From the NCBI GenBank assembly GCA_016861205.1, contig BOKX01000001.1:456539-520538 (forward strand): a stretch of DNA of 64,000 nucleotides, given 5' to 3'. Under the pieces are notes generated by a model. The model ran no database searches, was not told the origin of the DNA, and saw only the letters and a program-made list of their open reading frames with translations. This stretch comes from Patescibacteria group bacterium. Lineage in GTDB: Bacteria; Patescibacteriota; Microgenomatia; UBA1400; PJMF01. Shown here one piece after another: positions 22,701 through 63,995 of the stretch; position 1 is the stretch's first letter; each line of letters opens with the position of its first letter. Both the position numbers and the translations under genes were made by a program.

Positions 22701-24647
22701 TATATGTATGTACCCGTGATGATCTCCGCAATCACGGCTACAGTAATTGGTGGTTGGTACGCAGCCAAAGGCGACACTGGCGTTAAAATCATTAAAGAGT
22801 TTCGATTATCACTCCCATTCTTTAACACTGCGTTGATTTCCAAGTTATCTGCTATCGCGTTTTTTAGTCTCGACAACGTCATTGTGGCTCATTACCTCTC
22901 AACGGAAGAAACAGGTATGTATGGACTGCTGGGTTTGATCGGTAAAATGATTTTCTTTGCCGGGAGTTTGACGGTCGGATTTATTCTGCCGCTAGTTTCG
23001 CATAAAGAAGGTCAACATCAAAAAAGTGAAGCTGTCTTCCACAAACTGCTCCTCTTAACAGTCAGTTTAAGTTCTCTAGCATACATTGCGCTGGGCTTAG
23101 TCTTGCCGTCGATAGCTCCTTACTTCTTTGGCTTAAAACTGAATGCGATTAGAGGCTATCTGCCACTGTATGCACTTGGTATTTTGCTCTACACCATCTC
23201 CCAAACAGTTGTTCAATATCGGCTGGCAAAGCGATCTTACTTTTTCTCCATCGCCTCGTTTTTAGTAGCTATTATTCAGGTGGCAGGCTTGACCATTTAT
23301 CACAACTCACTGACTCAAATAGTGAATGTAATGTTTGTGAGTGGTTTACTCAATGCAGTTGTCCTATTTTCCTTGCATCACTGGTACCACAAAATTGAAG
23401 CCCCATTAAGTAATGTACGAGATTTTCTGGACTTATTTAATCCCATCCCACGTTTGACTCGACCTTTAGAGACCAAGGATCACTACCGGATTTTGATCCT
23501 TAACTGGCGAGATACCAAACATGCTTGGGCTGGCGGAGCCGAAAAGTACATCCACGAAGTCGCTACCCGGTTGGCCGCTGCTGGGCATAAAGTAACAATG
23601 TTTACGGGAAATGATGGCCATCATCCCCGCAACGAGGTTGTTGATGGTGTTCAAGTGGTCCGTCGTGGTGGTTTTTACACCGTGTACATTTGGGCATTCC
23701 TGTACTATGTCCTCCGGTTTAGACCATATGTTGACATCGTGATTGACTGTGAAAACGGCATCCCATTTCTCACACCCTTATATGTTCGCAAACCCATCTT
23801 GTTGCTGATTCATCACATTCACCAAGAAGTCTTTATGACTCACCTGCGGTTTCCTTTTTCCGAAATCGCCGCCCTGATTGAAAGTGACCTGATGCCATTT
23901 TTGTATAAGCACAAAACGCTGATCACGGTTTCCGAATCATCGAAAGATGAAATGATTGGGTTGGGACTAGGTAATACTCAAACGGTTAAGGTCGTTAACC
24001 CTGGCATCGACACCCACCTTTTCACTAAAAAACGAAAGACCAGCCAGCCATCGCTAGTGTACCTGGGCCGGCTGAAACCATACAAACAAATTGATGTGGC
24101 CATAAAAGCCTTTGCCAAAGTCATAGCTGATCATCCGACAGCCACGTTCACGATCGCTGGAAGTGGTGAGTCACTGGAATCACTTCAGCAACTCTGCCAA
24201 AAACTAGGCTTAACATCCCACGTGACGTTCAAACCCTCGGTAACTGACGAAGAAAAAGCCAAACTATTTGCTGAAAGTTGGGTGGCAGTGCAGCCATCAA
24301 CAATTGAAGGTTGGGGCATTACTGTCATTGAGGCAAATGCGGCAGGAACACCAGTAGTTGCATCTAATGTTAAGGGTCTTCGCGACTCTGTAGTTGATGG
24401 CAAAACAGGCATCCTGGTCAAAGCTGGGCAAGTCAGTGAGTTTGCTGCAGCAATCAACAAACTGTTTAGCAATACAAAATTCAGAGCATCACTGTCTCGT
24501 GAAGCCGTGAACTGGGCCAAACACTTTGATTGGAATGTTAGTTACAATAATTTTAATCACATACTCGATGAAACAATTCAGAAGCATCAAACCCATCACA
24601 ATAACGCCTATTCTAAGGAGGTCTATGACCAAAAAATCACTCGCTGA
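19782..24647 (+). CDS. 1621-aa multidomain polysaccharide synthase with four fused modules: a DPM1-like GT2, a processive-type GT2 with QxxRW, a Wzx/MOP-like flippase domain, and a GT4
   Basis: Residues about 20-230 form a GT2 domain (DIIIPVKNE...IIVDDHSTDDT...DGD). About 350-700 form a second GT2 (DAED, QRSRWIKG = Q(Q/R)xRW) with trailing TM helices. About 720-1180 form roughly 12 TM helices resembling polysaccharide-biosynthesis/Wzx flippases. About 1190-1610 form a GT4 domain (EGWGITVIEANAAGTPVVAS, E-x7-E motif). The start is TTG at 19782 or a downstream GTG. Confidence 0.7.
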   Translation: MNTSHYISTVSAGTSPPRAFPKIDIIIPVKNEAANLSPLMARLDTSLRTAHIKYQAIIVDDHSTDDTRVIAKKLAQKYPIKVLTKKGKPGKAYSILEGAKAATSEWLVMIDGDLQYPPEAIPDMVKLIDQHGVVVARRISYEGSRLRRLGSRAVAWFTGQFLHGIKVDVQSGLKIFKKDFLNYLPENEVTPWALDLPLLHAALELGYTLGEVEITFEKRIHGSSKLSLLKPTFEIGMAAVKLKLRSSQPIPIPAHSHQNMIGAGLIHRRRQFITHSTLHHRQTALHTITRNQRRLILAILASVAVGIFLNPLETAIVVVAFLSFVYFVDVIFNFFLILKSLHSPPELEFSTTEISELNDKDLPIYTILCPLYKEAHILPGFVAAMEKLDWPKHKLDVILLFEEDDLETIETVKTMKLPKHFRVAIVPDSQPKTKPKACNYGLNLAKGEYVVIYDAEDIPEPAQLKKAYLGFQTVGPKVKCLQAKLNYYNPNQNWLTRFFTAEYSLWFDVILTGLQSIETNIPLGGTSNHFRTTDLLALQGWDPFNVTEDCDLGIRLFKAGNKTAIIDSTTLEEANSNFKNWIRQRSRWIKGYMQTYLIHMRQPQEFVRTQGWHALLFQLTIGGKLAFILINPLLWVLTISYFALYAYVGPTIEALYPSVVFYMAVTSLIFGNFMFIYYYMIGCAKREHWGLIKWVYLIPFYWLMVSIAGAIALYQLIVKPHYWEKTVHGLHLKKASLAKKASKVAKKTTHQVMVEAIAQEKPSITGRLHIFGYSDFKNKWLERLELKHKYVSLKRLVHQLLFGEYRGGLWLVLATVIANFLNMLTSFYLGHELEFSDFALINTFISLLYLLGILTSSLSATVNHRAALLLGKFKQKSARNFWTHVQKRAVIVAILMSLLWLVNIPWLTNFFNMSTPLPLIIFTPLIFSGLLGAVNEGYLRGRLLFEVLAITTLIDPIVRLGLSLLFDAVNLEYYMYVPVMISAITATVIGGWYAAKGDTGVKIIKEFRLSLPFFNTALISKLSAIAFFSLDNVIVAHYLSTEETGMYGLLGLIGKMIFFAGSLTVGFILPLVSHKEGQHQKSEAVFHKLLLLTVSLSSLAYIALGLVLPSIAPYFFGLKLNAIRGYLPLYALGILLYTISQTVVQYRLAKRSYFFSIASFLVAIIQVAGLTIYHNSLTQIVNVMFVSGLLNAVVLFSLHHWYHKIEAPLSNVRDFLDLFNPIPRLTRPLETKDHYRILILNWRDTKHAWAGGAEKYIHEVATRLAAAGHKVTMFTGNDGHHPRNEVVDGVQVVRRGGFYTVYIWAFLYYVLRFRPYVDIVIDCENGIPFLTPLYVRKPILLLIHHIHQEVFMTHLRFPFSEIAALIESDLMPFLYKHKTLITVSESSKDEMIGLGLGNTQTVKVVNPGIDTHLFTKKRKTSQPSLVYLGRLKPYKQIDVAIKAFAKVIADHPTATFTIAGSGESLESLQQLCQKLGLTSHVTFKPSVTDEEKAKLFAESWVAVQPSTIEGWGITVIEANAAGTPVVASNVKGLRDSVVDGKTGILVKAGQVSEFAAAINKLFSNTKFRASLSREAVNWAKHFDWNVSYNNFNHILDETIQKHQTHHNNAYSKEVYDQKITR

Positions 24648-36989: not shown

Positions 36990-39668
36990 CTAATATTTTA
37001 CTCTTTTTGTCTTATCAATAAACCCTAGAACTTTTCCCCAATTAATTATTTTTTTCAATTGCCAACGCATTGTATCTTCAGTGTATTCACACTCTTCTAG
37101 AAGTAACTTATAGCTTTCAAATACTGGAGAACCTTGGTTAATTTTTCCCCATATCTCAGAGTAGGGCTTTTTAGAAAAGAAAGGCTTCAGTTTATCAAGG
37201 AGATCCTCTTCTGATGTGAAAAATAGCTCTTCTTCTTGAATTAGGTCAAAAGCCTTTAAATTTGATTTACAACTAGTTGAAAGCCGATCATTGATCTCCA
37301 CACTATTAAGAATATTCTGTAAAACTTTGCGCATCTGAGAAAATGTCACAGATGGAATAAAAAAATTACTGCTTCTTTTTCTAGCTCTAATTGAATAAGG
37401 AAGAACACTGATATTACCAAGCTTAGCAATAATCTTATTATGGTCCGCTATATTTAGTGATATCGAACCACCCTTAGAAACTACTAGCTCTGTTCCTTGA
37501 AGCCATGAAAGAAGAACTTTAGAATATGTGCGCCATGTAGAATCTGATGCGCTCAGATAAGGTAAACTTTTCTTTAAATAAGAAGGAATTTCATCCACGT
37601 TTATTGACTCTTCCTTCCCGATTGAATTTAAGAGACTTGATATATACTTATTATTTACCAATTTTCTTCTGATATATTCGCTCAACCGAGCCTGACTAAA
37701 AATATCTTTTACATTTTGTTGTACTCTCCAATAACTACCGTCCTTGACAAAAATTTCAAGATTCATGATTTCTTTAATATGATTATACGCAGTCTTCTTT
37801 GAGAAATTGTACTCTTTCATCAATGCATTAATAGTAAATTTATTTCTGGACATAGCCCAATGAATGATCGAAAGAATAGCAGAAATATTGATTCTAAGGA
37901 TTATTGGTTGCTGAAATTCTGGCAGTTTACTATATACAAGATACTCTTTAAACACATCATTATAAGTATCATAAGTTTCCCCAGTAAGTCTGAGCAAACG
38001 TGCCTGTGTTAGTTTCTCTAAAATTTTGGGCAGTAACGGATCTTCATCGAATTGGATATGTAGTTGGTTATAAGTTGATGGCAATCTGGTTGCAATATTA
38101 ATCAGATATTGTTTTTCTATTTCATCAAGGCCTTCAAGTTCTTCATCAAAAAGATCTTTTAACTGCAAACCTTCTGATATAAGTTCTTTCTCAGACTTCC
38201 CAGTAGACAAAACTTTAAGGATGTGTGCTGCTGTTCTCTTAAGAAGCCACGGAAAACCTTGTGAAAACTCAAGTAAATATGATCTTATATCGCGACCAAC
38301 TTCGAATTCTGAGTTTTCATTAATTCCATCTATTAAAGCGATGGCTTCGTCAGGAGTAAAATCTGTTAATTTATAATGTTTTGACACTAAGTTCAGTTTA
38401 TCCAAGTTGATGCTTTTCTCATCATAAGTAGTCAAAAGATCATCTTTTCTTGCTATCACTATGAATAGATCTTTAGGATATTTTAGAGCGAGGTCTATAA
38501 GTGCCTCATAAGAGTAGTAGACATCTGGATTTGTAAATGTAGACTCAAATTGATCTATGATCAACAGAAATTTTTTCTTTTGTGAAAGAAAAAGTTCTTT
38601 AAAAGCATTCTCAACATCATTTATGTCAGCAATAATCTCATCAGTTGATGTTATATTTTGGATCAGTGTTAAAAAATCAAGTTGACTTTTGATATTTCTA
38701 GCATCATGAGTATGCACGACATTTGTTTTAGCAAGAAGGCTTTCTAGGTATACCAAAAGTGAACTTTTTCCAACTCCAGATCTGCTCTTAACTTGAATTA
38801 TATTAGGAGAACTACCTGTTTCTAAATGTGACTTTATTTCATGAATTAACTCAGATCTTCCAATAAAATATTTTGGATCAACAGGAAATCGATAGTCTAA
38901 CCATCCAGAGCCAACCGTAATATAGCTTGCTTGCCTATTAATTGATCTTTGTTTCAATTTTTTACCGTAAATAACCGGTTCGAAATTTTGAAAATCAGGA
39001 ATTCTTTGAACTACTTCTCTAAGAAATTTTTCATCTGAAACTAATTCAGATTTATCGTTAAATATAGCAAGGTATGATGGAGTTACGTTCTCCGTTGTTC
39101 CTGCAACTAGAACTATATATACTCCTATATTAGTTTTTAATAAGAAGTTATTTCTTGCGGTAAAACCATGTCCGGATAGTTGCTTCGTCAAAATCGCTAT
39201 ATTCGGAAGATTCATTACATCTATCATAGATGCCATTAGTTCTTTTCCTGACAAGGCTTGAATTTTTTTATCATCTAAGTCATCCAGATAGTTCTGTGAC
39301 TCACTAGATATTGATGCCGTCGAGAGGAATATCGCATCTAAACTAGGATCTTTTTTACGTGGTACAGCCAATTTCCCAATAAACGATGTCACTTTTTCAG
39401 CCTCGACTACACTTGAGTAAGCCTTTGCTTCACCTATTAATGTAGTACCAGTAACTTTATGTTTTCCTTCTATGTCATACTCTAAAGAACTTTTTTTTCT
39501 TCTTAGTTCAACCTCATATCCTACTTTGCTCAAGTATTCTGACAAAAGTTCTTCAAAAAGCTTTCCTTTATAGAAGGAAACATTGGAATCATTCGCTTTT
39601 TTATCAATCTGTAGAAACAAGAACATATGTCCGAATATACCCCAAATACCGTTTTTCTGTAAGAACAT
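36990..39668 (-). CDS. Mrr-like PD-(D/E)xK nuclease plus P-loop STAND-like NTPase plus C-terminal helical/HTH region, giving an Avs-like defence-protein architecture
   Basis: The N-terminus LFEELLSEYLSKVGYEV...EYDIEGKH...LIGEAKAY has the Mrr_cat-like D...(E)xK core. FIGRSELIHEIKSHL is an AAA_16/STAND-like lead-in. Walker A is RSGVGKSSLL and Walker B is FLLIIDQFE. An HTH-like segment FSKKTAYNHIKEIM lies near the C-terminus. GC content is about 33%. Confidence 0.65.
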   Translation of the reverse strand: MFLQKNGIWGIFGHMFLFLQIDKKANDSNVSFYKGKLFEELLSEYLSKVGYEVELRRKKSSLEYDIEGKHKVTGTTLIGEAKAYSSVVEAEKVTSFIGKLAVPRKKDPSLDAIFLSTASISSESQNYLDDLDDKKIQALSGKELMASMIDVMNLPNIAILTKQLSGHGFTARNNFLLKTNIGVYIVLVAGTTENVTPSYLAIFNDKSELVSDEKFLREVVQRIPDFQNFEPVIYGKKLKQRSINRQASYITVGSGWLDYRFPVDPKYFIGRSELIHEIKSHLETGSSPNIIQVKSRSGVGKSSLLVYLESLLAKTNVVHTHDARNIKSQLDFLTLIQNITSTDEIIADINDVENAFKELFLSQKKKFLLIIDQFESTFTNPDVYYSYEALIDLALKYPKDLFIVIARKDDLLTTYDEKSINLDKLNLVSKHYKLTDFTPDEAIALIDGINENSEFEVGRDIRSYLLEFSQGFPWLLKRTAAHILKVLSTGKSEKELISEGLQLKDLFDEELEGLDEIEKQYLINIATRLPSTYNQLHIQFDEDPLLPKILEKLTQARLLRLTGETYDTYNDVFKEYLVYSKLPEFQQPIILRINISAILSIIHWAMSRNKFTINALMKEYNFSKKTAYNHIKEIMNLEIFVKDGSYWRVQQNVKDIFSQARLSEYIRRKLVNNKYISSLLNSIGKEESINVDEIPSYLKKSLPYLSASDSTWRTYSKVLLSWLQGTELVVSKGGSISLNIADHNKIIAKLGNISVLPYSIRARKRSSNFFIPSVTFSQMRKVLQNILNSVEINDRLSTSCKSNLKAFDLIQEEELFFTSEEDLLDKLKPFFSKKPYSEIWGKINQGSPVFESYKLLLEECEYTEDTMRWQLKKIINWGKVLGFIDKTKRVKY

Positions 39669-54523: not shown

Positions 54524-55633
54524 TTGATGTCAGAACTCGATCCCCAAGTCCTCCTCGACCAAGCCCAAACCGTTTTGGCCGCCAGTTCCCTTGTGGAGTT
54601 GCAACAGACACAAACTCAACTTCATGCTGAAACACTCGCACCAGGCTTTTGGTCTCGACCAGATGCCCAAGCGATCATGCAAAACTTAGCTACCACCGAG
54701 CAGCGGCTGCGTGAACTGGATGAACTTCAAAAACTACGCGACGATGTCCAAGCTTCTCAAGCCTTGTTAGCGGAACTAAGTGCCCAAGCCGAAGACTCAA
54801 CCGACAATCAAGCACTCAACCAAGAACTCACTACCCTGTTACCCAAGCTTGCCAAGTCAATTGCAGCCGTCGAGTTAACTCAGTTCTTGGCTGGTAAGTA
54901 CGATAGTTACGGTGCAATCGTCTCATTTCATTCTGGCCAAGGCGGGACTGAAGCCATGGACTGGGCGGACATGGTTCGTCGGATGTATCTTCGCTACTTT
55001 GAGAAAAAGGGCTGGAAATACCAGTTTATTTCAGAATCAAGAGGTGAAGAAGCCGGCATCAAAGCAGCCGTGTACGAGGTCACTGCTCCTTATGCCTATG
55101 GCTACCTCAAGTATGAGCGTGGCACCCATCGCCTGGTGCGCCTTAGCCCCTTCAACGCCGATAGTTTGCGGCAAACATCGTTTGCATTGGTAGAAGTGCT
55201 GCCATTAATTCCGGCTGACAGTGGCGAAGTTGAGCTTAAAGAAGCTGAGTTGTCATGGCATTTTACCCGGGCTGGCGGAGCTGGTGGTCAAAACGTCAAT
55301 AAAGTGAACACTGCAGTCGAGCTCACCCATTTACCGACAGGCATTGTCGTTCGTTGTCGAGAAGAACGCTCACAAGCACAAAACAAAGCCAGGGCGCTGC
55401 AGCTCCTCAAAGCCCAACTGGCCCAACAAGAAGACGAGAAACAACAAGCTGAGTTGGCCAAAGTCAAAGGCACCCATAGTCATGCCAGTTGGGGAAACCA
55501 GATTCGCAACTATGTTTTGCATCCTTATCACTTGGTTAAAGACACACGGACTGAGGTTGAGTCGACTGATACCGACGCCGTACTCGACGGGGATCTTGAC
55601 CAGTTTATTCAGGCAGAAATCAAGGCACTCTAA
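54524..55633 (+). CDS. prfB: peptide chain release factor 2
   Basis: SPF tripeptide (RLSPFNA) and GGQ motif ([11 protein letters not shown]). It is a continuous ORF with no programmed +1 frameshift site. Confidence 0.9.
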
Positions 55634-55851: not shown

Positions 55852-56403
55852 ATGGAAGCCAACCAATCAGTACCCACACCTGCTCTTGAACCCACTCCTC
55901 AGCCGAGTCAACCTGGCGTACTGCATTCGTTGGACATGGATCAGAAAGGCAGTGATATGAAGTCGTCAAAGAAAGTTGTAATGGTGCTGGCTGTGGTCAT
56001 GATCGCAGCGGGCATTGGCACAGGTGTCGGCGTTGCTAAACTTCAAGGCAAGAGCGTACCAGGGGCACCTAGCTCTGCTCAACCAATTCAACAGGTGGCC
56101 GGTAACCAGGTCAAAGCGGGTGACGTGTTTGGTGTGCCCGATGAGAAAACATTTAAAGACAGCGCCGAAGGTTATCTTGAAGCCGGCGGTCTCGACGGTG
56201 AAGGTTCACACCACCTCCTGCGTGAAGGTGGAGTATCTCAAACAGTTTACTTAACTTCTTCGGTAACAGATCTGAGTAAGTTTGAAGGTATGACCGTAAA
56301 AGTTTGGGGTGAAACCTTTAAAGCCCAAAAAGCTGGCTGGTTGATGGACGTAGGCCGTGTTCAGGTCGTCAACCCTCAAGGCCAAGCCCCCAGTGAGGAG
56401 TAA
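55852..56403 (+). CDS. hypothetical membrane-anchored protein encoded upstream of ftsEX
   Basis: Pro/Gln-rich N-terminus, one TM helix (VVMVLAVVMIAAGIG) and an extracytoplasmic about 120-aa domain. An internal Met (MDQKG) is an alternative start. Confidence 0.4.
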   Translation: MEANQSVPTPALEPTPQPSQPGVLHSLDMDQKGSDMKSSKKVVMVLAVVMIAAGIGTGVGVAKLQGKSVPGAPSSAQPIQQVAGNQVKAGDVFGVPDEKTFKDSAEGYLEAGGLDGEGSHHLLREGGVSQTVYLTSSVTDLSKFEGMTVKVWGETFKAQKAGWLMDVGRVQVVNPQGQAPSEE

Positions 56404-56411
56404 CTACGCAC

Positions 56412-57224
56412 ATGATAGTGTTTGACAAAGTCACCAAACGCTTTGGTGATGACACGTTTGCATTGCACGATGTGTCATTCGAAGTTGATCCCGGTGAGTT
56501 TGTGTTTTTAACTGGTCCGTCGGGTAGTGGCAAAACCACGGTCATGAGATTACTGACCCGCGAGTACACACCGAGTGAAGGTGAGATTACTTTTGGCGAA
56601 ACGCCATTGCATGAACTAAAGTCAAACCAAGTTTTTCAGCACCGCCGCCAAATAGGGGTAATCTTCCAAGATTACAAACTGTTAAGCGACTCTAACGTTT
56701 GGGAAAACATTGCTCTGCCGCTGTACATCATTGGCAAGTCACAAGCCGAGATCGAATCAAGGGTGACCGACTTGCTCAAGTTGGTCAACTTGGTTGATAA
56801 AGCCTACCTCTTCCCTAGCCAACTTTCAGGTGGTGAAGCCCAACGCGTCAGTATTGCCCGAGCCTTAGCTACAGGACCTCGGGTCATTTTCGCTGATGAA
56901 CCTACGGGTAACCTCGATCCAGAGACCTCGCTCAGCATTGCCAAGCTCCTTCATAAGATTAATCAGCTTGGTACCACAGTCTTGCTAGCTACACATGATA
57001 CTGGTGTGCTGGACTCACTCAAAAGCGAACGCCGGCTCCACCTCGACAAAGGCAAGCTCGTCAAAGACAGCCACGCGGGTAAAAAGCCAAAGCGTAAACC
57101 AGTGCCAGTCAAAGTTGACCCCGAACAACCAGACACGCCTGATGAGTCTGATGCGAAAAAAGACCCGACCGATGACCACCAACCAACTGAAGTACATGTT
57201 GAAAACTTGGATGGAGCCAAATGA
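56412..57224 (+). CDS. ftsE: cell-division ABC ATPase FtsE (with a Lys/Pro-rich C-terminal tail)
   Basis: Walker A GPSGSGKTT, ABC signature LSGGEAQRVSIARA, and Walker B VIFADEPTGNLD. Confidence 0.85.
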   Translation: MIVFDKVTKRFGDDTFALHDVSFEVDPGEFVFLTGPSGSGKTTVMRLLTREYTPSEGEITFGETPLHELKSNQVFQHRRQIGVIFQDYKLLSDSNVWENIALPLYIIGKSQAEIESRVTDLLKLVNLVDKAYLFPSQLSGGEAQRVSIARALATGPRVIFADEPTGNLDPETSLSIAKLLHKINQLGTTVLLATHDTGVLDSLKSERRLHLDKGKLVKDSHAGKKPKRKPVPVKVDPEQPDTPDESDAKKDPTDDHQPTEVHVENLDGAK

Positions 57225-58090
57225 AATCATTCAGTTCAGCTTTGGTTGGTATGCGACGCTCACCCTATCAGAGCTTGGCTGCTGTAATCATGGTGACCTT
57301 GACGTTCTTCGTAGGCTACGCTTTTTCATTGTTTATCATCGGAGCTGAGCGCATTTTGCAGTACTTTGAGACCCAACCACAGGTCATTGCGTTCTTCACC
57401 CTGGATGCTGACCCCACCACTATCGAGACTGCAGCCAAAACCATGCAGTCCAAGTCATACGTTGAGAAAGTAACAGTCGTCGATAAACAAAAAGCCCTCG
57501 AGTTGTACCAACAAGATAATCAGGACGACCCGTTGCTGCTTGAACTCGTCACGGCTGAAATCCTACCGGCCAGCATTGAGGTCTCGGGGAAAACTGCTGC
57601 TGACTTACCCAAAATCAAAGAAGATCTCAACCAGATTAGTCAAATCGATGAGGTCATTTTCCAACAAGATATTATCGAGTCACTGACCAGCTGGACGCGA
57701 GCCGTGCGACTGATTGGTTTGGGTAGCACAGTTGTTTTAGCAGTCAGTTCGTTTTTGACGGTGCTTGTCATCATCGGCATCAAAGTCACGATCAAGAAGC
57801 AGGCTATCAACATCATGCGTATGATCGGCGCGACTCGTTGGTACATTACCTTACCATTCTTTTATGAAGGTATGGTCTACGGCTTAGTTGGTTCTTTGAT
57901 CGGCTGGGGATTCATGTACGGCTTGTTGTTGTACCTGACTCCTTGGTTAAAGAATTTTTTGGGCAGTATTGCCGTCCTGCCAGTGCCATGGGAACTCCTC
58001 GGCTTACAGCTTGCTGCTGGTAGCTTCTTGGGTATGGTATTAGGTGGATTGACCGGAATTATCGCCACCCGCCGGTTAATCCGACGATAG
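57221..58090 (+). CDS. ftsX: cell-division permease-like protein FtsX
   Basis: One N-terminal TM helix, an about 100-aa extracytoplasmic loop, and three C-terminal TM helices. It is translationally coupled to ftsE by a 4-nt overlap. Confidence 0.85.
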   Translation: MKSFSSALVGMRRSPYQSLAAVIMVTLTFFVGYAFSLFIIGAERILQYFETQPQVIAFFTLDADPTTIETAAKTMQSKSYVEKVTVVDKQKALELYQQDNQDDPLLLELVTAEILPASIEVSGKTAADLPKIKEDLNQISQIDEVIFQQDIIESLTSWTRAVRLIGLGSTVVLAVSSFLTVLVIIGIKVTIKKQAINIMRMIGATRWYITLPFFYEGMVYGLVGSLIGWGFMYGLLLYLTPWLKNFLGSIAVLPVPWELLGLQLAAGSFLGMVLGGLTGIIATRRLIRR

Positions 58091-58099
58091 GTTCAAGTC

Positions 58100-59344
58100 A
58101 TGCGCATATTGCGATCTCGCCAGCTACCACTGCTGACTCTGTTGGGGTTGGTGGTTGGTTTGGGGCTGGCGGCCTTTCCTCCCCTCACTCAGCACATCCG
58201 TGCGGCCGAAAACTGCGAGCTGATTAGCTGTAACAAAGACACCCAATCAGATGATGATTTTTTATCGTGCAACAAACGCAAACAAACGTGTTGGGAAGAA
58301 AAAATTCGGGATGCCAAAAATGCCAGTAACACTTTGGCAAACACCATCTCAATTCTGAACGGTCAGATTCAAGTCCAACAACTGCAGATCGACCAAACCC
58401 TTGCTGAAATTCGCCAGTTGGAGCGAGAAATCGATGACTTAACCAAACGCATTTCTGGCCTGAACATCTCGCTCGATCGCCTAACCACGGTGTTGGTTCA
58501 GCGAGTCCAAGCCCAGTACAAACGCAGTTACTTAACTCCTTTCTCAGCAATTTTGGCTTCCCAAGACTTTACTCGCAGTTTGGCTCAACACAAATACGTC
58601 ACTCATGCCCAGGACCAAACAGCACAGGTCATGCAACAAGCTGAAACCCAAAAACAAACCTATGACCAGCAAAAAGCCCTCAAAGAAACCAAGCAAGCTG
58701 AGGTCGAGAAAAAACAAGCTCAGCTAGAACAACAACGGCAAGGTCTGACCAAACAACGCTCAGAACAACAGTTCCTGCTACAACAAACCAAAAATGATGA
58801 GGCTCGCTATCAACGGGAACTGGAAAAAACCTTGGCTGAGCTTGAAGCTATCCAATCCATCATTGCTGGTCGTGGTAACGAATCAGAAGTCAAAGACGTC
58901 CAACAAGGTGATCAAATTGCCTCGATCATTGTTGGTGCCTCTGCTTGTTCAACAGGCTCTCACTTACACTTTGAAGTTGTCAAAGACGGCAGTCACCGTG
59001 ACCCAGCCGGCTACCTAAGATCAATCGATGCCGCTTGGCAGAATCAACCGGACTCATCATTCGGATTCGGGGGTGATTGGGAATGGCCGCTGAACAATCC
59101 CGCTAAGATCAACCAAGGCTACGGCATGACCTACTATGCGAGAGTACGTCGCGCGTACGGCGGGGCACCTCATACTGGCATTGATATGATCAGCAAATCC
59201 TCGGGCGATTACTCCGTCAAAGCCGTGAAACCAGGCAAGTTATATCGTGGTAGTATTCCATGCGGCGGTGGCACTCTACGCTACGTCCGCGTCGCCCACA
59301 AAGACGACGGCATGAACACGTACTATCTACACGTTAACTACTAG
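58100..59344 (+). CDS. coiled-coil M23 (LytM-type) peptidase (EnvC/PcsB-like FtsEX partner) with catalytic motifs in permuted order
   Basis: Signal or anchor, about 200 aa of Q/E-rich coiled coil, then GDQIASIIVGASACSTGSHLHFEV (HxH segment), followed by YGG..PHTGIDM...YYLHVNY (HxxxD segment). Confidence 0.7.
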   Translation: MRILRSRQLPLLTLLGLVVGLGLAAFPPLTQHIRAAENCELISCNKDTQSDDDFLSCNKRKQTCWEEKIRDAKNASNTLANTISILNGQIQVQQLQIDQTLAEIRQLEREIDDLTKRISGLNISLDRLTTVLVQRVQAQYKRSYLTPFSAILASQDFTRSLAQHKYVTHAQDQTAQVMQQAETQKQTYDQQKALKETKQAEVEKKQAQLEQQRQGLTKQRSEQQFLLQQTKNDEARYQRELEKTLAELEAIQSIIAGRGNESEVKDVQQGDQIASIIVGASACSTGSHLHFEVVKDGSHRDPAGYLRSIDAAWQNQPDSSFGFGGDWEWPLNNPAKINQGYGMTYYARVRRAYGGAPHTGIDMISKSSGDYSVKAVKPGKLYRGSIPCGGGTLRYVRVAHKDDGMNTYYLHVNY

Positions 59345-59368: not shown

Positions 59369-60868
59369 CTACTCAGCACTCGGCAACACCGTTCGCTTTT
59401 CAACAGTCAGCAAGCCAAAGATTTGGGTCGAGAGTAACTGAGTCGGACCCAGTTCTTCGGTCCACTTTTTGATCCAAAACGGTTCCACCGCTTTCTCAAT
59501 CACTACGTAGATAATTTGGGCGCCGTCACTGGTATCTTGTGGGTACCAATAGCTGTGCAAGTATCGCCAACCTTGATCTTGGAAGTAGGGAATGCTAAAC
59601 GCTTGCAACCGATAGGGCTGACCGGCGGCATCCTGGTGAACATACGCCAGCAACCGGCGTTGGTCAGCCAGGTTTAAGTCATCTTGAATAGTTCTAAAAA
59701 AAACGTCACGGTTCTGGGAGTAGTTCTGCCACAGTGGCCACCAGGTACTTACCAGCAAAGCGACCGCGGCCATCGCCACTACCTTACCCCACATTGGCCG
59801 CCACCAGGCTTGAATAGCCAAAACCCACAACCAAATTACGCTCAAACCCGTGCCAATATAGAGCTGCGGCAGGCTCAGTGAGCGCGGAAACAACATGACC
59901 GGTGCCGTCATTAACCACCATGCTAAACAAAACAAAATGGCAGGTTGAGATTTTTTATGTCGCCAAGCCATGATCACGCCACTCACCATCACCACTAGTG
60001 TTGCCCACCACCGCCAGTCTGCTGCACCCAACAGGTTGCGATGTGTCAATCGAAGTAGTTGCTGGCCGTAACCTACAACTGAACGCGAAAGAGAGCTTGC
60101 CCCCGTCTGATGGTTAGCTTCATTGAGGTACGCTAAGGTTGAGTGCCAGCTGATCCAGTCATTTCGCAGATTAAACAGGAGCATTGGTACGTACCAAAAA
60201 CCCGCGGCCGCCAAACTACCCAGCCAAGCTCTGGCGCTCGGCTTTGGCAGCCACTGCGTCGCCAGCAGTACCACTGCTATCCATCCGAACCAGAGCGTCA
60301 AGATGATTTCAAACTGAGCCGTTAAGCCAGCTACGCCGGCACCCACAATCCACCACCACTCTTGCTTGGTTTTACGAAACTGCCACCAGCACCACATCAC
60401 CACTGGCACGCCCAAAAAAGCTGGAGTCACATTTGAAAGCCAACGACTATAGTGGAGCGCTTCGTAACTAATAATACTCAAAAAAGCCCCCACTGTTGCC
60501 CATTTTGTGGAACCAGTCAGCTCGCGACCTAAGAACCACATCACCACTGGCACAAAAGCTGTTAAGAACACCAAGCTGAAACTAGCAACTAACGGATTGC
60601 CACCACTTAAACCGTAGGGAATCGCCATTAAGTAGTAGTACCAGGCCCCATGGAACAACCCACCGATGTCGGTTTTAGGCCCCACCAGCACAAAGTCGCC
60701 TGACTTGACTATGGCCATGCTAGCCATGGCATCACGACCTTGCTCAAACCCGAAAAACAGATCGACCGGTAAGCGATACCAATGCAGAGTCACAGCCAAT
60801 CCAACCAACATAGCTGGTAGCCACCAACCAAGATATTTCTGCAGGATTTTCCAGCGAGCGGTACGCAT
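59369..60868 (-). CDS. GT-C fold membrane glycosyltransferase (ArnT/PMT-like)
   Basis: 499 aa with about 12 TM helices and an ArnT-like first loop. Confidence 0.5.
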   Translation of the reverse strand: MRTARWKILQKYLGWWLPAMLVGLAVTLHWYRLPVDLFFGFEQGRDAMASMAIVKSGDFVLVGPKTDIGGLFHGAWYYYLMAIPYGLSGGNPLVASFSLVFLTAFVPVVMWFLGRELTGSTKWATVGAFLSIISYEALHYSRWLSNVTPAFLGVPVVMWCWWQFRKTKQEWWWIVGAGVAGLTAQFEIILTLWFGWIAVVLLATQWLPKPSARAWLGSLAAAGFWYVPMLLFNLRNDWISWHSTLAYLNEANHQTGASSLSRSVVGYGQQLLRLTHRNLLGAADWRWWATLVVMVSGVIMAWRHKKSQPAILFCLAWWLMTAPVMLFPRSLSLPQLYIGTGLSVIWLWVLAIQAWWRPMWGKVVAMAAVALLVSTWWPLWQNYSQNRDVFFRTIQDDLNLADQRRLLAYVHQDAAGQPYRLQAFSIPYFQDQGWRYLHSYWYPQDTSDGAQIIYVVIEKAVEPFWIKKWTEELGPTQLLSTQIFGLLTVEKRTVLPSAE

Positions 60869-60877
60869 AGTTACAAG

Positions 60878-62725
60878 TTAAGGCTGATACCGATAGACTA
60901 CCCAAATTACATGGCCACGTCTATCCCGAATTGTAGTCAACGTTTCAACATGACCTCGATTAATCATATCGAGCCAACCTTGTTCATTTGAAGCTACTAA
61001 ACCTGGTCCGGTGATCTCAGCAACCGACTTGATTGCCACCCAGTTGTCGTACTCTACAAACTCACCATCATCCAACTTGGAGGTAGCCTCAGCGGTTTGG
61101 ACTTGCCGAGGATCAACTTGGCCATAAAACCAGTAATACATGAGTGGTCGACCTTGATCGCGAGTAATCCAAATCCGCTGTTCTGAACTTTCCGCTCGTA
61201 GTTTCATCAACGTGGGAATTAACTCTTGGTAACCAACTTGCCAATCGGCACCATACACAGCAGGATAGATTTGGGTGTAGTATCGCCAAAACAACGCGAG
61301 CTGACAAATGTATGCTCCAATAACTGTTACCACAAAAACCTGACGTGACCAACGCGTTAGCGCTCTGAGAGATTTAAACTTCACCCACTTAGCGAGTAAC
61401 TCAGCCCACCACTCACCAATTGCCCACCACCCAGTAGCAATAACAATCATAAGCGCAGGAGCGCCGGGTAACGTTCTGAGTGCGTGTGGGCTACCAAAAG
61501 TAATGGCCGCCGGCACCAGGCTAAACCACCACCAACCTAAAATCAGGGCAGCACCTCTGGTTCGCCGCTTTACGAGTACTAACGTTCCCACCACCAAAGC
61601 CACTACTTCAAGATAGTAGAGTTGACCCATAAACTGAATCGAGTGCCGAGCGTTGTGATCACCACGAATAAACAGAAACTGCGGTGACAAGTGACTAAGG
61701 TAGTTTTTTACAATCTCCCGGCCAAGGACAATTTGGCGATGATAAAAAAACTTTGCCCACGGATCCGCAGCCTCAGCTTGCAACTGAGCACTTTCCAAAA
61801 TATGGTCTGGACGAGCGAGTAAACTCGTTTGGGCAATGCGTTGTTGGACCACTGGCGACGTACTGGCTTGCCACAACGGCCAAATCGTGATTCCTAATAC
61901 CAAGGCGTAACCAACAGCCCATACTCCCCAAGTTTTTAGCAACCATAACCAACCCTTTGGCCACCATAGCCATATCGCTAGCACTGCTAACCACAGCCCC
62001 ATTGCTGGAGCAATTACTCGAGTAGCATGATAGGTGTACATGCTGGCTACGCATAGCAAAATCACCACTCCCCAACCCAAACGGTCTATCACCCGTGGCG
62101 GCCGGTCATACCGTGATAACTCCCAGCTCGCAACTGCGATAGCCAACGTTAACCAAGCTGTCGCCATGTTCACTTCCCAACCACCTCGCGAAAATTGAAT
62201 CAACCAAGGTGAAATCGCAGCCACTCCAGCTACAGTTGCCGCCCACCACCACTTTTCATTGTTTGACAACTGACGCTGCCGGCCCAAAAGACTTTGACTC
62301 CAACTGCTGGCCAACCAAGCAGTGGCTAGCACAGTAATCACTCCTGCGATGGCTGATGGCAATCGAACTGCCCAAGCTCCCAATGGCAAAATTTGCAACC
62401 ACGGAACAATCATGTAAAAGTAACCACTGGGCTTAAAGTCACCAAATGACTCAAAGGCGACGATTGGCCAGGGTTGGCCGTGATGATCCAGACCAGTTTT
62501 TACCAAAGAGTAGGCATCATAGCCTAAAGCCACCTCTTCCCAATACAGTGAAACTGGCCATGCATCCAGCCGGATCAATCGCAGAGCTGCTGCAAGCAAC
62601 ACTGCGCTCACCAACGCCAAAATCGGCCACCAGTGGTTCTTAAGGGTGCGGATCATAAATGTAAAACCTTGGTTTTGCATCGCTACCATACACGACATAG
62701 TTAGCTCGTTCCGGTGGTAACTCAT
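60878..62725 (-). CDS. GT-C fold membrane glycosyltransferase (ArnT/PMT_2-like) with a C-terminal soluble domain
   Basis: 615 aa with an ArnT-like YWEEVALGYDAYSL motif and a C-terminal about 150-aa soluble region. The annotated start overlaps the upstream gene by 86 nt, so an internal Met (62656 or 62680) is likelier. Confidence 0.5.
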   Translation of the reverse strand: MSYHRNELTMSCMVAMQNQGFTFMIRTLKNHWWPILALVSAVLLAAALRLIRLDAWPVSLYWEEVALGYDAYSLVKTGLDHHGQPWPIVAFESFGDFKPSGYFYMIVPWLQILPLGAWAVRLPSAIAGVITVLATAWLASSWSQSLLGRQRQLSNNEKWWWAATVAGVAAISPWLIQFSRGGWEVNMATAWLTLAIAVASWELSRYDRPPRVIDRLGWGVVILLCVASMYTYHATRVIAPAMGLWLAVLAIWLWWPKGWLWLLKTWGVWAVGYALVLGITIWPLWQASTSPVVQQRIAQTSLLARPDHILESAQLQAEAADPWAKFFYHRQIVLGREIVKNYLSHLSPQFLFIRGDHNARHSIQFMGQLYYLEVVALVVGTLVLVKRRTRGAALILGWWWFSLVPAAITFGSPHALRTLPGAPALMIVIATGWWAIGEWWAELLAKWVKFKSLRALTRWSRQVFVVTVIGAYICQLALFWRYYTQIYPAVYGADWQVGYQELIPTLMKLRAESSEQRIWITRDQGRPLMYYWFYGQVDPRQVQTAEATSKLDDGEFVEYDNWVAIKSVAEITGPGLVASNEQGWLDMINRGHVETLTTIRDRRGHVIWVVYRYQP

Positions 62726-63995
62726 CCTCGGGTGTAGCGACTACCACTGTCTGCTTTCGGTCTAAGTCTCCTATGTTAATGTGATCGCTAAATTCATACT
62801 TAATCAACGAGCCACCCTGATAGTAAATGGGATTCGTTTTTCGAACGAACAGGGCATATATGTAAGGCTGGCCGTAGCGACTTGAAAAAATAATTTTGCT
62901 GGCTTCAGGTAAGCCGTCACTGCCTTTCTCAAATGGCACGACATACTTGAAAGCCTCAATGTAGCCATCACTAAATGCAGCCGCAGACTCGCGAGCAAAC
63001 ACTGTGTAGTAGTGCCGAAGATATGACAAGAAAATAAAACCTGATACTAAAATACTCAAACCAATCACCATCGGCTTGAGTAAGTTTTGCTCACCGTGGG
63101 ATCCACGCCAATTTGGCCGATCGGGCACCTCATCCAACCAACGCATAGTCCGATCTATGCCGATGAGTGCTAATCCAAGGAATCCCGGTAAGGCCAACAA
63201 ACTTCGATTGCTATGCGGCACGTCGATTCCAATGATCGCGGGCACTAAACCAATCACAACCCATCCCAACATTACTCCCCACCACCTGCGAGCAGGCAGC
63301 CACTTCATGCCAGCGACAATCCCTAACACAACAGCCACTAACTCCAGCGGAAACAGGACACCCCACTGACCATCTCCATGACGCAGTGTTGGGGTTGCTC
63401 CGGCCACTAAAAACTGTGGTGAAAGATGAATCAATGTATGAGACCAAAGTTTAGCCACAACCTCACTCACTGGCCACCCCTTTGCAAACATACTGGCTTG
63501 CGCAAACCGCTCCCCTCCACTTCCCATCAATGTGTCTCGAACTAGCGGGAACAAAGCCGCCAAACTCAGAACACCAATTCCCAAAATCCAGATTGCCTTT
63601 CTGAGATACGATCGCCAACTTAGACAGAGCGTCAAACCTACCAGCAACGGCACCACAATCTTAGAGCTGTGATACGTGTAAATACTCGCCACTAATCCAA
63701 GCAAAGTCAGAGTTGCTGCTAGCCACTGTTGGCGCTTTTGCCAGCTACTGGTTTTGCTTGGCCAAGGATTGATAAGCCAACTCAACCCAACCATTCCCCA
63801 CAGCAAAAAACTCAGAGCCAGTCCGGATTCAAAGGCTACACGCGAGTAATGTAAATGCCACGGAGAAAATGCTAACAATCCTCCACCTAGTAAAATGGCC
63901 GTCGGTTTTGATAACTTCATTTCTGTCGGCCACCAACGGGAGATCAGCAGCATCCAAGCTGCGACAGCCGCAACACCAGCGATCGCAAATGGCAA
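62640..63995 (-). CDS. GT-C fold membrane glycosyltransferase (ArnT/PMT-like), possibly 5'-truncated by the window edge
   Basis: 451 aa with about 11 TM helices. The ORF reaches within 5 nt of the window end. Confidence 0.45.
   Translation of the reverse strand: MPFAIAGVAAVAAWMLLISRWWPTEMKLSKPTAILLGGGLLAFSPWHLHYSRVAFESGLALSFLLWGMVGLSWLINPWPSKTSSWQKRQQWLAATLTLLGLVASIYTYHSSKIVVPLLVGLTLCLSWRSYLRKAIWILGIGVLSLAALFPLVRDTLMGSGGERFAQASMFAKGWPVSEVVAKLWSHTLIHLSPQFLVAGATPTLRHGDGQWGVLFPLELVAVVLGIVAGMKWLPARRWWGVMLGWVVIGLVPAIIGIDVPHSNRSLLALPGFLGLALIGIDRTMRWLDEVPDRPNWRGSHGEQNLLKPMVIGLSILVSGFIFLSYLRHYYTVFARESAAAFSDGYIEAFKYVVPFEKGSDGLPEASKIIFSSRYGQPYIYALFVRKTNPIYYQGGSLIKYEFSDHINIGDLDRKQTVVVATPEDELPPERANYVVYGSDAKPRFYIYDPHP

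What the first reader, a model, noticed from the sequence alone, without database searches (positions are those of the whole stretch)
58100..59344. FtsEX-associated coiled-coil M23 peptidase with a circularly permuted catalytic domain
In canonical LytM/M23 domains the HxxxD motif (HTGID) precedes the HxH motif (STGPHLHFE). Here the order is reversed. The segment GDQIASIIVGASACSTGSHLHFEV comes first, straight after the coiled coil. It is followed by INQGYGMTYYARVRRAYGGAPHTGIDM...GMNTYYLHVNY, which matches the N-terminal half of an M23 domain, including the terminal YxHL-like strand. All four metal-binding or catalytic residues are present, so this looks like an active but circularly permuted M23 domain rather than a degenerate EnvC-like activator. 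The gene sits immediately downstream of ftsE and ftsX, so the encoded protein is probably the septal hydrolase or hydrolase activator controlled by FtsEX.
Basis: partly seen in the sequence, partly recalled or inferred. Interest (0 to 1): 0.55.

Follow-up and report, generated by a model that had tools for sequence, protein, structure and literature searches.

The report
Circularly permuted M23 cell-wall peptidase beside FtsEX
The gene after ftsE-ftsX in this Patescibacteria (Microgenomates) window encodes a secreted coiled-coil protein whose zinc cell-wall peptidase (M23/LytM) domain has its two halves in swapped order, an arrangement shared by hundreds of relatives and absent from the literature I could search.

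Summary
ORF 58100-59344 (+, 414 aa) lies 9 nt after ftsX. It has a signal or anchor segment, a long coiled coil, then an M23 domain in reversed order: HLH at aa 288-290 precedes HTGID at aa 358-362 and YLHV at aa 409-412.

- **Order test:** In native order Pfam matches only profile positions 61-96. Joining aa 313-414 to aa 256-312 gives one contiguous match (positions 2-96 of 96, E 4e-12).
- **Profile test:** A re-ordered family profile hits 44 solved M23 sequences in single stretches (best E 3e-21). The native-order profile gives one hit, split into two crossing pieces.
- **Tandem test:** The domain aligns collinearly across the junction of a tandem-M23 protein.
- **Fold:** AlphaFold gives one compact domain (pLDDT 94, pTM 0.90).
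- **Active site:** Y353, H358, D362, H411 and H288 are invariant or nearly so, and H290 is kept in at least 90% of 51 diverse members.
- **Context:** ftsE-ftsX-gene order holds in four divergent relatives. The coiled coil resembles EnvC, PcsB and RipC.

Most likely this is an FtsEX-controlled active septal endopeptidase. Activity and FtsX binding are untested, and order-dependent fold searches found no M23 match. I rate it a new variant of a known kind, of moderate interest.

The parts
56412..57224 (+). ftsE (ABC ATPase, 270 aa), with a charged C-terminal tail
   Evidence: Pfam ABC_tran, E 1.5e-35. Its last 4 nt overlap the start of ftsX.
57221..58090 (+). ftsX (289 aa), with an extracellular FtsX_ECD domain and the FtsX permease domain
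   Evidence: Pfam FtsX_ECD at aa 54-145 (E 6.5e-13) and FtsX at aa 171-288 (E 8.1e-12).
58100..59344 (+). Whole gene: a 414-aa secreted or anchored coiled-coil protein with a circularly permuted M23 domain
   Evidence: ORF. There are 542 homologues at E <= 1e-3, and the 120 listed are 56-96% identical. No promoter-like or terminator-like site lies between ftsE, ftsX and this gene.
58100..58207 (+). N-terminal signal peptide or membrane anchor (aa 1-36). It is basic, then hydrophobic, then IRA|AE.
   Evidence: Read from the sequence. A hydrophobic N-terminus is present in all 33 aligned homologues. The cleavage site is inferred and was not predicted with a tool.
58214..58291 (+). Conserved four-cysteine motif (C39, C44, C57, C64)
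   Evidence: C57 and C64 are invariant. C39 and C44 are conserved in at least 90% of 33 sequences.
58250..58864 (+). Long helical coiled-coil region (aa 51-255; helices 51-74, 79-143, 147-153 and 157-255)
   Evidence: AlphaFold secondary structure. Best Foldseek PDB matches are EnvC in the FtsEX-EnvC complex (8tzl_E, E 2.8e-4) and EnvC bound to the FtsX domain (6tpi_A). PcsB (4cgk) and RipC in FtsEX-RipC (8idc_E) follow. Pfam CC_PcsB matches 20 of 51 family members, best E 5e-9.
58847..58882 (+). Helix-to-domain junction AIQSIIAGRGNE (aa 250-261)
   Evidence: A250, I251, Q252, S253, I254, A256, G257, G259 and E261 are invariant in 33 homologues.
58865..59035 (+). C-terminal half of the M23 domain, placed first (aa 256-312). 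It contains HLH (aa 288-290, nt 58961-58969) and C283.
   Evidence: Pfam profile positions 61-96. It aligns to residues 100-141 of 9gy1_A. H288 is invariant and H290 is kept in at least 90% of 51 diverse members.
59015..59089 (+). Segment joining the old C-terminus to the old N-terminus (aa 306-330, LRSIDAAWQNQPDSSFGFGGDWEWP)
   Evidence: It aligns with the inter-domain linker of the tandem-M23 protein P0214. W313, P317, D318, W327, W329 and P330 are invariant in 33 sequences.
59036..59341 (+). N-terminal half of the M23 domain, placed last (aa 313-414). It contains Y353, HTGID (aa 358-362, nt 59171-59185), C388 and YLHV (aa 409-412, nt 59324-59335). The protein ends at Y414.
   Evidence: It aligns to residues 39-92 of 9gy1_A. 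In the re-ordered construct it fills Pfam profile positions 2 to about 60. H358, D362 and H411 are invariant in 51 diverse members.
55852..56403 (+). Conserved 183-aa single-pass membrane protein between prfB and ftsE. It may belong to the cluster; its function is unknown.
   Evidence: No Pfam match. It sits in the same position in two homologous loci, and its C-terminal ~100 aa are almost invariant.

Best explanation
The gene encodes an extracytoplasmic peptidoglycan endopeptidase of the M23/LytM zinc-peptidase fold, with its catalytic domain circularly permuted. The part that normally comes last (a beta-hairpin plus the HxH strand) follows the coiled coil directly. The part that normally comes first (loop 1, HxxxD, and the strand carrying the second catalytic His) comes last and ends the protein.

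**Shown here:**
- The swapped order of the two halves.
- Their assembly into one confidently predicted domain.
- Retention of the residues that correspond to LytM Tyr204, His210, Asp214, His260, His291 and His293.
- A fixed gene order ftsE-ftsX-gene.
- A coiled coil like those of the FtsX-binding proteins EnvC, PcsB and RipC.

**Inferred:**
- The coiled coil docks on the FtsX extracellular domain.
- ATP binding and hydrolysis by FtsE move it and switch the peptidase on at the division site, as in monoderm FtsEX-PcsB, FtsEX-CwlO and FtsEX-RipC systems.
- Because of the permutation, the last coiled-coil helix enters the domain next to the strand bearing catalytic H411 and the free C-terminus. 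Groove loops 4 and 1 become one continuous chain. Both changes could alter how FtsEX movement reaches the active site, and could alter substrate specificity.
- The permutation probably arose from a tandem M23 duplication followed by loss of the two outer halves.
For: **Permutation**
- In native order Pfam matches only profile positions 61-96, and phmmer against PDB sequences shows crossed half-matches.
- The re-ordered construct gives one match to profile positions 2-96 of 96, E 4.3e-12. It also gives one gap-free junction alignment to 9gy1_A.
- The re-ordered family profile hits 44 distinct M23 PDB sequences, each in one stretch spanning the catalytic domain. Examples are 9gy1 (E 3.2e-21), LytM 2b44 residues 20-132 and lysostaphin 4qp5 residues 15-138.
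- The native-order profile gives a single hit with two crossing stretches.
- BLASTP aligns aa 10-158 of the domain collinearly to residues 127-267 of the tandem-M23 protein P0214, across its domain junction.

**One domain, not two**
- The domain model has pLDDT 94.1 and pTM 0.90.
- A Cys upstream of HxH and a Cys in the other half co-occur: 211 proteins have both, 6 have neither and none has only the first.
- About 97% of the permuted proteins I identified end no more than 6 residues after the Yx-His motif.

**Active site**
- H288, H358, D362 and H411 are invariant, and H290 and Y353 are kept in at least 90% of 51 sequences that go down to 29% identity.
- The roles of the equivalent LytM residues are taken from PMC9662197.

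**FtsEX link**
- The gene order is conserved in P0083, P0067, P0265 and P0236, although the outer flanks differ.
- Foldseek places EnvC in its FtsEX and FtsX-domain complexes first, with PcsB and RipC further down the list.
- CC_PcsB matches 20 of 51 members.
- An Amesbacteria genome has the same coiled coil after ftsEX but carries a Peptidase_C39_2 domain instead, which fits a modular FtsEX-tethered hydrolase.
Against: - No enzymatic, zinc-binding or FtsX-binding data exist for any family member.
- Foldseek searches of the confident domain model against PDB and BFVD returned no M23 match, not even a partial one.
- Order-dependent aligners are expected to do poorly on a permutant. Even so, the fold assignment rests on sequence profiles and on AlphaFold confidence, not on a structural superposition.
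- The native-order control used a different and less diverse alignment than the re-ordered profile.
- The cysteine co-occurrence is not corrected for shared ancestry.
- Gene order suggests a functional link but does not prove physical coupling.
Confidence: 0.7

Rival explanations
1. The protein is a non-catalytic EnvC-type activator. The permuted LytM-like domain does not cut peptidoglycan. Instead it binds and releases another hydrolase, such as an amidase, under FtsEX control.
For: EnvC in FtsEX or FtsX-domain complexes gives the best structural matches for the full-length model. One source annotates a family member as 'septal ring factor EnvC'. The architecture (coiled coil plus LytM-type domain) matches EnvC.
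Against: EnvC-type activators have lost their metal ligands. Here H358, D362, H288 and H411 are invariant, and H290 and Y353 are nearly so, across sequences down to about 30% identity. Such conservation is hard to explain without catalysis. In the studied FtsEX systems of bacteria without an outer membrane (PcsB, CwlO, RipC; established knowledge), the FtsEX partner is itself the hydrolase. I am assuming, not testing, that these Patescibacteria also lack an outer membrane.
Confidence: 0.08
2. The two halves do not fold together within one chain. Either they are decayed remnants of two tandem M23 domains, or they complement each other between subunits of a coiled-coil dimer (domain swapping).
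For: Tandem-M23 proteins exist, and they match the query across their junction. PcsB-type proteins dimerise (established knowledge). No structural superposition on M23 could be obtained.
Against: The monomer model of aa 256-414 has pTM 0.90 and pLDDT 94. All catalytic residues of both halves are conserved. The C-terminus is fixed 1-3 residues after the catalytic His in most members, as expected if the new termini meet inside one domain. The cysteines of the two halves co-occur. The permuted unit also occurs as a single module at the end of unrelated giant proteins that Pfam does not show to carry the PcsB-type coiled coil.
Confidence: 0.05
3. The protein is an active permuted M23 lysin whose main job is not the cell's own division. 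It might instead attack or remodel the wall of a host or neighbouring cell, as expected for episymbiotic Patescibacteria. In that case the ftsEX adjacency is only operon convenience.
For: The same permuted domain sits at the C-terminus of giant, probably surface-exposed proteins of 894-2174 aa. One of them also carries an endonuclease/exonuclease/phosphatase domain. M23 enzymes are often used as weapons (PMC9662197).
Against: The ~400-aa coiled-coil form is always found directly after ftsX in the five loci examined (the window and four relatives), even where the other neighbours differ. Its coiled coil resembles the FtsX-binding coiled coils of EnvC, PcsB and RipC.
Confidence: 0.1

Closest known systems
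Canonical M23B/LytM-type peptidoglycan endopeptidases (LytM, lysostaphin, ShyA, the Mycobacterium-type chain 9gy1)
   Same: It has the same catalytic residue set: the oxyanion Tyr, the Hx3D and HxH zinc motifs, and the extra catalytic His. It has the same sequence profile once re-ordered and the same order of predicted beta-strands when read around the circle.
   Different: The chain starts after the strand with the LytM His260 equivalent and ends on that strand. HxH therefore precedes Hx3D. Groove loop 4 is covalently continuous with loop 1. The new termini lie beside the active-site strand. A family-specific cysteine pair links the halves in most members. The 2022 M23 review does not contain the word stem 'permut'.
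EnvC (FtsEX-bound amidase activator of Gram-negative bacteria)
   Same: It has a signal sequence, a long coiled coil and a C-terminal LytM-type domain, and its gene is functionally tied to ftsEX. EnvC gives the best full-length structural matches (8tzl_E, 6tpi_A).
   Different: The EnvC LytM domain is in canonical order and is catalytically degenerate. This protein keeps all ligands and is permuted. No sequence-level match to the EnvC coiled coil was found (NCBIfam EnvC E 0.041, far below cut-off).
PcsB, CwlO and RipC (FtsEX-controlled hydrolases of Firmicutes and Actinobacteria)
   Same: It has an FtsX-linked coiled coil followed by an active hydrolase domain. Pfam CC_PcsB matches 20 of 51 family members. 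PcsB and RipC are among the structural matches. Its gene follows ftsEX directly; the studied partner genes lie in varied positions.
   Different: Their catalytic domains are CHAP or NlpC/P60 cysteine peptidases, not an M23 metallopeptidase.
Canonical coiled-coil M23 proteins (for example P0234, P0263, P0267 and P0252 from the library search)
   Same: They have the same overall plan (signal, ~250-aa coiled coil, active M23 domain) and similar length.
   Different: In these proteins the coiled coil is followed by loop 1 and Hx3D, and the protein ends after HxH. Here the order of the halves is reversed.
Circularly permuted NlpC/P60 families (YaeF/poxvirus G6R and LRAT-like)
   Same: They are a precedent for a cell-wall peptidase superfamily in which catalytic residues swap order through circular permutation (PMC6403190).
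   Different: They have a different fold and chemistry (Cys-His papain-like) and are not associated with FtsEX.

Membership tests
Peptidase family M23 (LytM/lysostaphin fold) | Sequence-profile match above the curated Pfam PF01551 threshold | tested here: met
   36.5 bits against a cut-off of 28.7 in native order. 46.5 bits and full profile coverage (2-96 of 96) after re-ordering. 50 of 51 family members match.
Peptidase family M23 (LytM/lysostaphin fold) | Zinc-binding motifs H(x)nD and HxH, plus the additional catalytic His and the oxyanion Tyr (PMC9662197) | tested here: met
   H358 and D362, H288-x-H290, H411 and Y353 are present. They are invariant or kept in at least 90% of 51 diverse members.
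Peptidase family M23 (LytM/lysostaphin fold) | Canonical linear order: Hx3D, then the catalytic His about 30 aa before HxH, then HxH | tested here: not met
   The order here is HxH (288-290), then Hx3D (358-362), then His411 and the C-terminus. It is restored only by circular re-ordering.
Peptidase family M23 (LytM/lysostaphin fold) | Three-dimensional M23 beta-sheet fold with the ligands around one metal site | tested here: inconclusive
Peptidase family M23 (LytM/lysostaphin fold) | Zinc-dependent cleavage of peptidoglycan peptide bonds | not testable with these tools
   This needs purified protein, a zymogram or muropeptide analysis, and ligand mutants.
FtsEX-controlled coiled-coil cell-wall hydrolases and activators (EnvC, PcsB, CwlO, RipC class) | Genetic linkage to ftsE-ftsX | tested here: met
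   The gene starts 9 nt after ftsX in the window. The same order is found in four divergent relatives.
FtsEX-controlled coiled-coil cell-wall hydrolases and activators (EnvC, PcsB, CwlO, RipC class) | Exported protein with a long coiled coil preceding a hydrolase-type domain | tested here: met
   Predicted helices 79-143 and 157-255. Structural matches to EnvC, PcsB and RipC. CC_PcsB matches 20 of 51 members. The hydrophobic N-terminus is read from the sequence.
FtsEX-controlled coiled-coil cell-wall hydrolases and activators (EnvC, PcsB, CwlO, RipC class) | Physical binding of the coiled coil to the FtsX extracellular domain, and ATPase-dependent activation | not testable with these tools
   FtsX here has an FtsX_ECD domain, but no complex prediction or experiment was possible.
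EnvC-type murein hydrolase activator | Degenerate LytM domain lacking the metal ligands, acting as an amidase activator | tested here: not met
   All ligands are present and conserved. NCBIfam EnvC scores 12.9 bits against a cut-off of 270.

The most novel reading that the evidence does not exclude
The permutation is not a neutral rearrangement but an adaptation. It moves the chain termini to the edge of the active site, so the last helix of the FtsX-bound coiled coil feeds directly into the catalytic sheet, beside the strand carrying catalytic His411 and the free C-terminus. FtsEX movement could then gate an intrinsically active M23 enzyme mechanically, without the occluding helices used by EnvC and PcsB. 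This would be a new coupling mechanism for FtsEX-hydrolase systems. The protein would be the main division hydrolase of a large uncultivated bacterial radiation.
Probability: 0.2. Interest if true: 0.72.

Novelty: new variant of a known kind. Interest (0 to 1): 0.52.

Why it matters
- **Textbook family, new topology.** M23/LytM peptidases are a textbook family defined by Hx3D preceding HxH. A natural, widespread circular permutant shows that the fold tolerates re-threading at the active-site strand. It also offers a ready-made design for engineered lysins with new fusion points.
- **Annotation gap.** Domain models see only about one third of this domain, so these proteins are named 'hypothetical', 'CwlO-like' or 'EnvC'. 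A dedicated model would correct the annotation of a likely core division enzyme across Microgenomates. These are uncultivated bacteria with reduced genomes whose division machinery is poorly known.
- **Mechanism.** The coiled coil enters the catalytic domain at a different point than in EnvC-like proteins. The family is therefore a natural experiment on how FtsEX transmits force to its hydrolase.

Tried and rejected
- **Order-dependent structure searches.** Foldseek searches of the domain model against PDB and BFVD gave only noise, with no M23 hit. I treat this as uninformative for a permutant, but I record it as missing confirmation.
- **Model coordinates.** They are not exposed, so ligand geometry and the distance between the termini could not be measured.
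- **Hidden canonical order.** I looked for one. Upstream of aa 256 everything is helical, and the histidines there (H164, H169) are not among the conserved columns. The protein ends at Y414, so I rejected this.
- **Assembly or frameshift artefact.** I rejected it, because 219 of 278 retrieved homologues share the order and about 97% of those end within 6 residues of the same motif.
- **Curated family covering the whole domain.** NCBIfam gave nothing near its cut-offs.
- **Literature.** Seven full-text searches found no report of a permuted M23 or LytM domain, nor of FtsEX partners in Patescibacteria.
- **Genome-collection scan.** It returned only 6 loci. They were useful for the Amesbacteria domain swap but too few for a survey.
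- **Origin of the permutation.** I did not build a phylogeny, so whether it arose once or several times is open.
Full report
**1. What is at the coordinates**

An ORF runs from 58100 to 59344 on the + strand and encodes 414 aa. Upstream on the same strand lie:
- prfB (54524-55633; PCRF and RF-1 domains);
- a 183-aa membrane protein with no family match (55852-56403);
- ftsE (56412-57224; ABC_tran, E 1.5e-35);
- ftsX (57221-58090; FtsX_ECD, E 6.5e-13, and FtsX, E 8.1e-12).

ftsE and ftsX overlap by 4 nt, and the gene starts 9 nt after the ftsX stop codon. The simple scans find no promoter-like or terminator-like site between them. The arrangement reads as one operon.

**2. Is the M23 domain really permuted?**

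- **Native order.** Pfam Peptidase_M23 matches above threshold, but only profile positions 61-96 at aa 265-302. phmmer against solved structures aligns aa 355-413 to residues 39-92 of the M23 chain 9gy1_A, and aa 265-307 to residues 100-141 of the same chain. The order is crossed.
- **Re-ordered single sequence.** I joined aa 313-414 to aa 256-312 in silico. Pfam then gives one contiguous match to positions 2-96 of 96 (46.5 bits, E 4.3e-12). Each half alone scores below threshold or not at all. The alignment to 9gy1_A becomes a single stretch (residues 39-141, E 1.3e-6). The native C-terminus ...YYLHVNY runs straight into AGRGNESEVKDVQQGDQIA with only a 3-residue gap.
- **Re-ordered family profile.** A profile of 31 re-ordered domains (A3) hits 44 distinct M23 sequences in the PDB, each in one stretch covering the catalytic domain. 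Examples are 9gy1 (E 3.2e-21), LytM 2b44 residues 20-132 of 133, lysostaphin 4qp5 residues 15-138 of 140, ShyA, SpoIIQ, DipM and EnvC.
- **Native-order profile.** The full-length native-order profile (A1) gives one hit at E 4.1e-5, made of two crossing pieces. This control used a different and less diverse alignment than the re-ordered profile.
- **Tandem-duplicate test.** BLASTP aligns aa 10-158 of the native domain collinearly with residues 127-267 of P0214, a protein with two tandem canonical M23 domains. The alignment spans the second half of domain 1, the linker and the first half of domain 2. This is the classic signature of a circular permutant, and it suggests an origin by duplication and loss of the outer halves.

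**3. One domain or two fragments?**

AlphaFold on aa 256-414, with a 51-sequence alignment reaching down to 29% identity, gives mean pLDDT 94.1 and pTM 0.90. That indicates one compact domain with confidently placed parts.

The predicted strands, read circularly, follow the canonical M23 succession (compared with the alignments):
- the HTGID strand;
- a short strand and a long hairpin;
- the YLHV strand;
- the chain end and chain start;
- a further hairpin;
- the HLHFE strand.

Two sequence features agree with the two halves being in contact and the new termini being constrained.
- **Cysteine pair.** I identified 219 permuted proteins among the 278 retrieved. A Cys just upstream of HxH (C283) and a Cys in the other half (C388) co-occur: 211 have both, 6 have neither, none has only the first, and 2 carry a different CxxC.
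- **Fixed C-terminus.** 213 of the 219 end within 6 residues of the Yx-His motif, most within 1-3.

**4. Catalytic competence**

The 2022 M23 review gives the defining features: H(x)nD and HxH zinc motifs, a further His about 30 residues before HxH (LytM His260), and an oxyanion Tyr (LytM Tyr204) (PMC9662197).

The alignments give this mapping:

| This protein | LytM equivalent |
|---|---|
| Y353 | Tyr204 |
| H358 | His210 |
| D362 | Asp214 |
| H411 | His260 |
| H288 | His291 |
| H290 | His293 |

All six are invariant in 33 close homologues. In 51 diverse members H288, H358, D362 and H411 are invariant, and H290 and Y353 are kept in at least 90%. This is the pattern of an active enzyme, not of a degenerate EnvC-type domain.

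**5. The rest of the protein and the link to FtsEX**

- **N-terminus.** It is basic, then hydrophobic, and ends in IRA|AE, so it looks like a signal peptide or anchor. This is read from the sequence and was not run through a predictor. A conserved four-cysteine motif follows.
- **Coiled coil.** The full-length model (pLDDT 78.9) has helices 79-143 and 157-255. Its best PDB matches are EnvC in the Vibrio FtsE/FtsX/EnvC complex (8tzl_E, E 2.8e-4) and EnvC bound to the FtsX periplasmic domain (6tpi_A). The RipA N-terminal domain, PcsB (4cgk) and RipC in FtsEX-RipC (8idc_E) come further down the list. Pfam's PcsB coiled-coil model matches 20 of 51 family members, best E 5e-9.
- **Gene order.** ftsE-ftsX-gene is kept in close relatives (P0083, P0067). 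It is also kept in divergent ones whose outer neighbours differ (P0265, P0236).
- **Domain swap.** In an Amesbacteria genome the gene after ftsEX encodes a homologous coiled coil followed by a Peptidase_C39_2 cysteine-peptidase domain. The coiled coil thus looks like an FtsX adaptor carrying exchangeable hydrolase modules, as in PcsB (CHAP) and in CwlO and RipC (NlpC/P60).

**6. How it most likely works**

*Shown:* an exported coiled-coil protein with an intact-looking but permuted M23 active site, genetically locked to ftsEX.

*Inferred:*
- The coiled coil binds the FtsX extracellular domain.
- The FtsE ATPase cycle changes its conformation and licenses peptidoglycan cleavage at the septum.
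- The permutation has two structural consequences that can be read from the sequence.
  - The last coiled-coil helix runs through an invariant junction (AIQSIIAGxGxE, aa 250-261) directly into the catalytic sheet. It enters next to the strand that carries H411 and the free C-terminus.
  - Groove loop 4 (after HxH) and loop 1 (before Hx3D) become one continuous, conserved segment of about 60 residues (aa 293-357). The review names these two loops as walls of the substrate groove.

  Either change could alter regulation or specificity. This is a hypothesis.

**7. Distribution**

The word-indexed search found 542 relatives at E <= 1e-3, and the 120 listed are 56-96% identical and about 400 aa long. 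The exhaustive search of 1.84 billion cluster representatives with the domain alone found 418 hits at E <= 1e-3 and 92 at E <= 1e-10. Most of the first ~110 listed hits match the query end to end and finish at the protein's C-terminus.

Nearly all named sources are Patescibacteria, mostly of the Microgenomates group: Pacebacteria, Woesebacteria, Woykebacteria and Chisholmbacteria. A few MAG labels name other taxa (Vitreimonas, Pseudomonadales); I take these to be mis-assignments. Many sources are unnamed, so restriction to this phylum is likely but not proven.

- Some members (P0250, P0265) keep near-canonical motifs (GSTGYSTGPHVHFE, FGGYGNAVVIDH, YGHM) yet are permuted.
- The permuted unit also ends giant proteins of 894-2174 aa, one of which carries an Exo_endo_phos domain.
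- Beyond these, the hit list turns into canonical M23 proteins that match in two pieces, including ordinary coiled-coil M23 proteins.

**8. Comparison with what is known, and novelty**

The protein works like the FtsEX-controlled hydrolases of monoderm bacteria, and its catalytic chemistry is that of M23B enzymes. It fails one defining feature of M23 as usually stated, the linear motif order. It is not an EnvC-type activator.

No curated Pfam or NCBIfam model covers the whole domain. Sources name these proteins hypothetical, CwlO-like, EnvC or DD-metalloendopeptidase.

Full-text searches combining circular permutation with M23, LytM or EnvC found nothing relevant. Searches combining FtsEX or FtsX with Patescibacteria or the candidate phyla radiation also found nothing relevant. 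The M23 review contains no occurrence of 'permut'. The only cell-wall peptidase permutation these searches turned up is in NlpC/P60 (PMC6403190). The library does not hold most subscription journals, so absence there is not proof of absence.

**9. Verdict**

- **Observation:** confirmed.
supported.
- **Novelty:** a new variant of a known kind, namely a circularly permuted M23 domain in an FtsEX-associated coiled-coil hydrolase that is widespread in Microgenomates.
- **Interest:** moderate (0.52). It is a clean, apparently undescribed topological variant of a textbook enzyme family, sitting in a likely core division protein of an uncultivated radiation. Its chemistry and system logic are familiar, and function is untested.

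Noticed in passing
window 55852-56403 (+); also L001 2448-3101 and L004 2426-3025: A 183-aa single-pass membrane protein with no Pfam match sits between prfB and ftsE. The same gene occupies the same position in two homologous loci. Its C-terminal ~100 aa are almost invariant (GDVFGV..TFKD.AEGYL...EGSH.LLR.GG..QTVYLTSS.TDL.K..GM.VK.WGETFK.Q.AGWLMDVGRV). It may be an unrecognised partner of the FtsEX-hydrolase cluster.
   Followed up: partly
L010 5917-7077 (Candidatus Amesbacteria contig DAHWUD010000011.1): The gene after ftsE-ftsX encodes a coiled coil homologous to the window protein (31% identity over aa 44-262). It ends in a Peptidase_C39_2 papain-like domain instead of M23, so the hydrolase module has been swapped on a shared FtsX-adaptor coiled coil.
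   Followed up: partly
proteins P0203 (1256 aa), P0206 (894 aa; cluster mate P0271, 2492 aa) and P0219 (2174 aa): The same permuted M23 unit sits at or near the C-terminus of giant proteins. P0206 also has an endonuclease/exonuclease/phosphatase domain, and P0219 has a bacterial TSP3 repeat. Pfam shows no PcsB-type coiled coil in them, and their gene neighbourhoods were not examined. They might be surface or attack proteins.
   Followed up: partly
window 58214-58291 (aa 39-64) and 58847-58882 (aa 250-261): The mature N-terminus carries a conserved four-cysteine motif (C39, C44, C57, C64). The helix-to-domain junction AIQSIIAGxGxE is invariant in 33 homologues and is more conserved than most of the coiled coil. 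The function of both is unknown.
   Followed up: no
window 59369-63995 (-): Three consecutive large multi-pass membrane proteins (499, 615 and more than 451 aa; the last two ORFs overlap by ~85 nt) have no Pfam match at E <= 1e-5. By eye they look like GT-C/ArnT-type glycosyltransferases.
   Followed up: no
window 19782-24647 (+): A 1621-aa ORF fuses two family-2 glycosyltransferase regions with a family-4/group-1 glycosyltransferase region (Glycos_transf_2, Glyco_tranf_2_3, Glyco_transf_4, Glycos_transf_1).
   Followed up: no
window 36990-39668 (-): An 892-aa protein combines an Mrr_cat restriction-endonuclease domain with an nSTAND1 NTPase domain. This architecture looks like a defence system.
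   Followed up: no
window 57085-57224 (FtsE aa ~225-270); L001 3175-4116; L004 3127-4092: FtsE carries a charged, proline-rich and acidic C-terminal extension (KKPKRKPVPVKVDPEQPDTPDESDAKKDPTDDHQ...). The FtsE proteins of two homologous loci are longer still (313 and 321 aa).
   Followed up: no
model of window aa 256-414: A model with pLDDT 94 found no significant Foldseek match in PDB or BFVD, although M23 structures are abundant there. Order-dependent structure search appears blind to this permutant, which may explain why it has gone unnoticed.
   Followed up: partly
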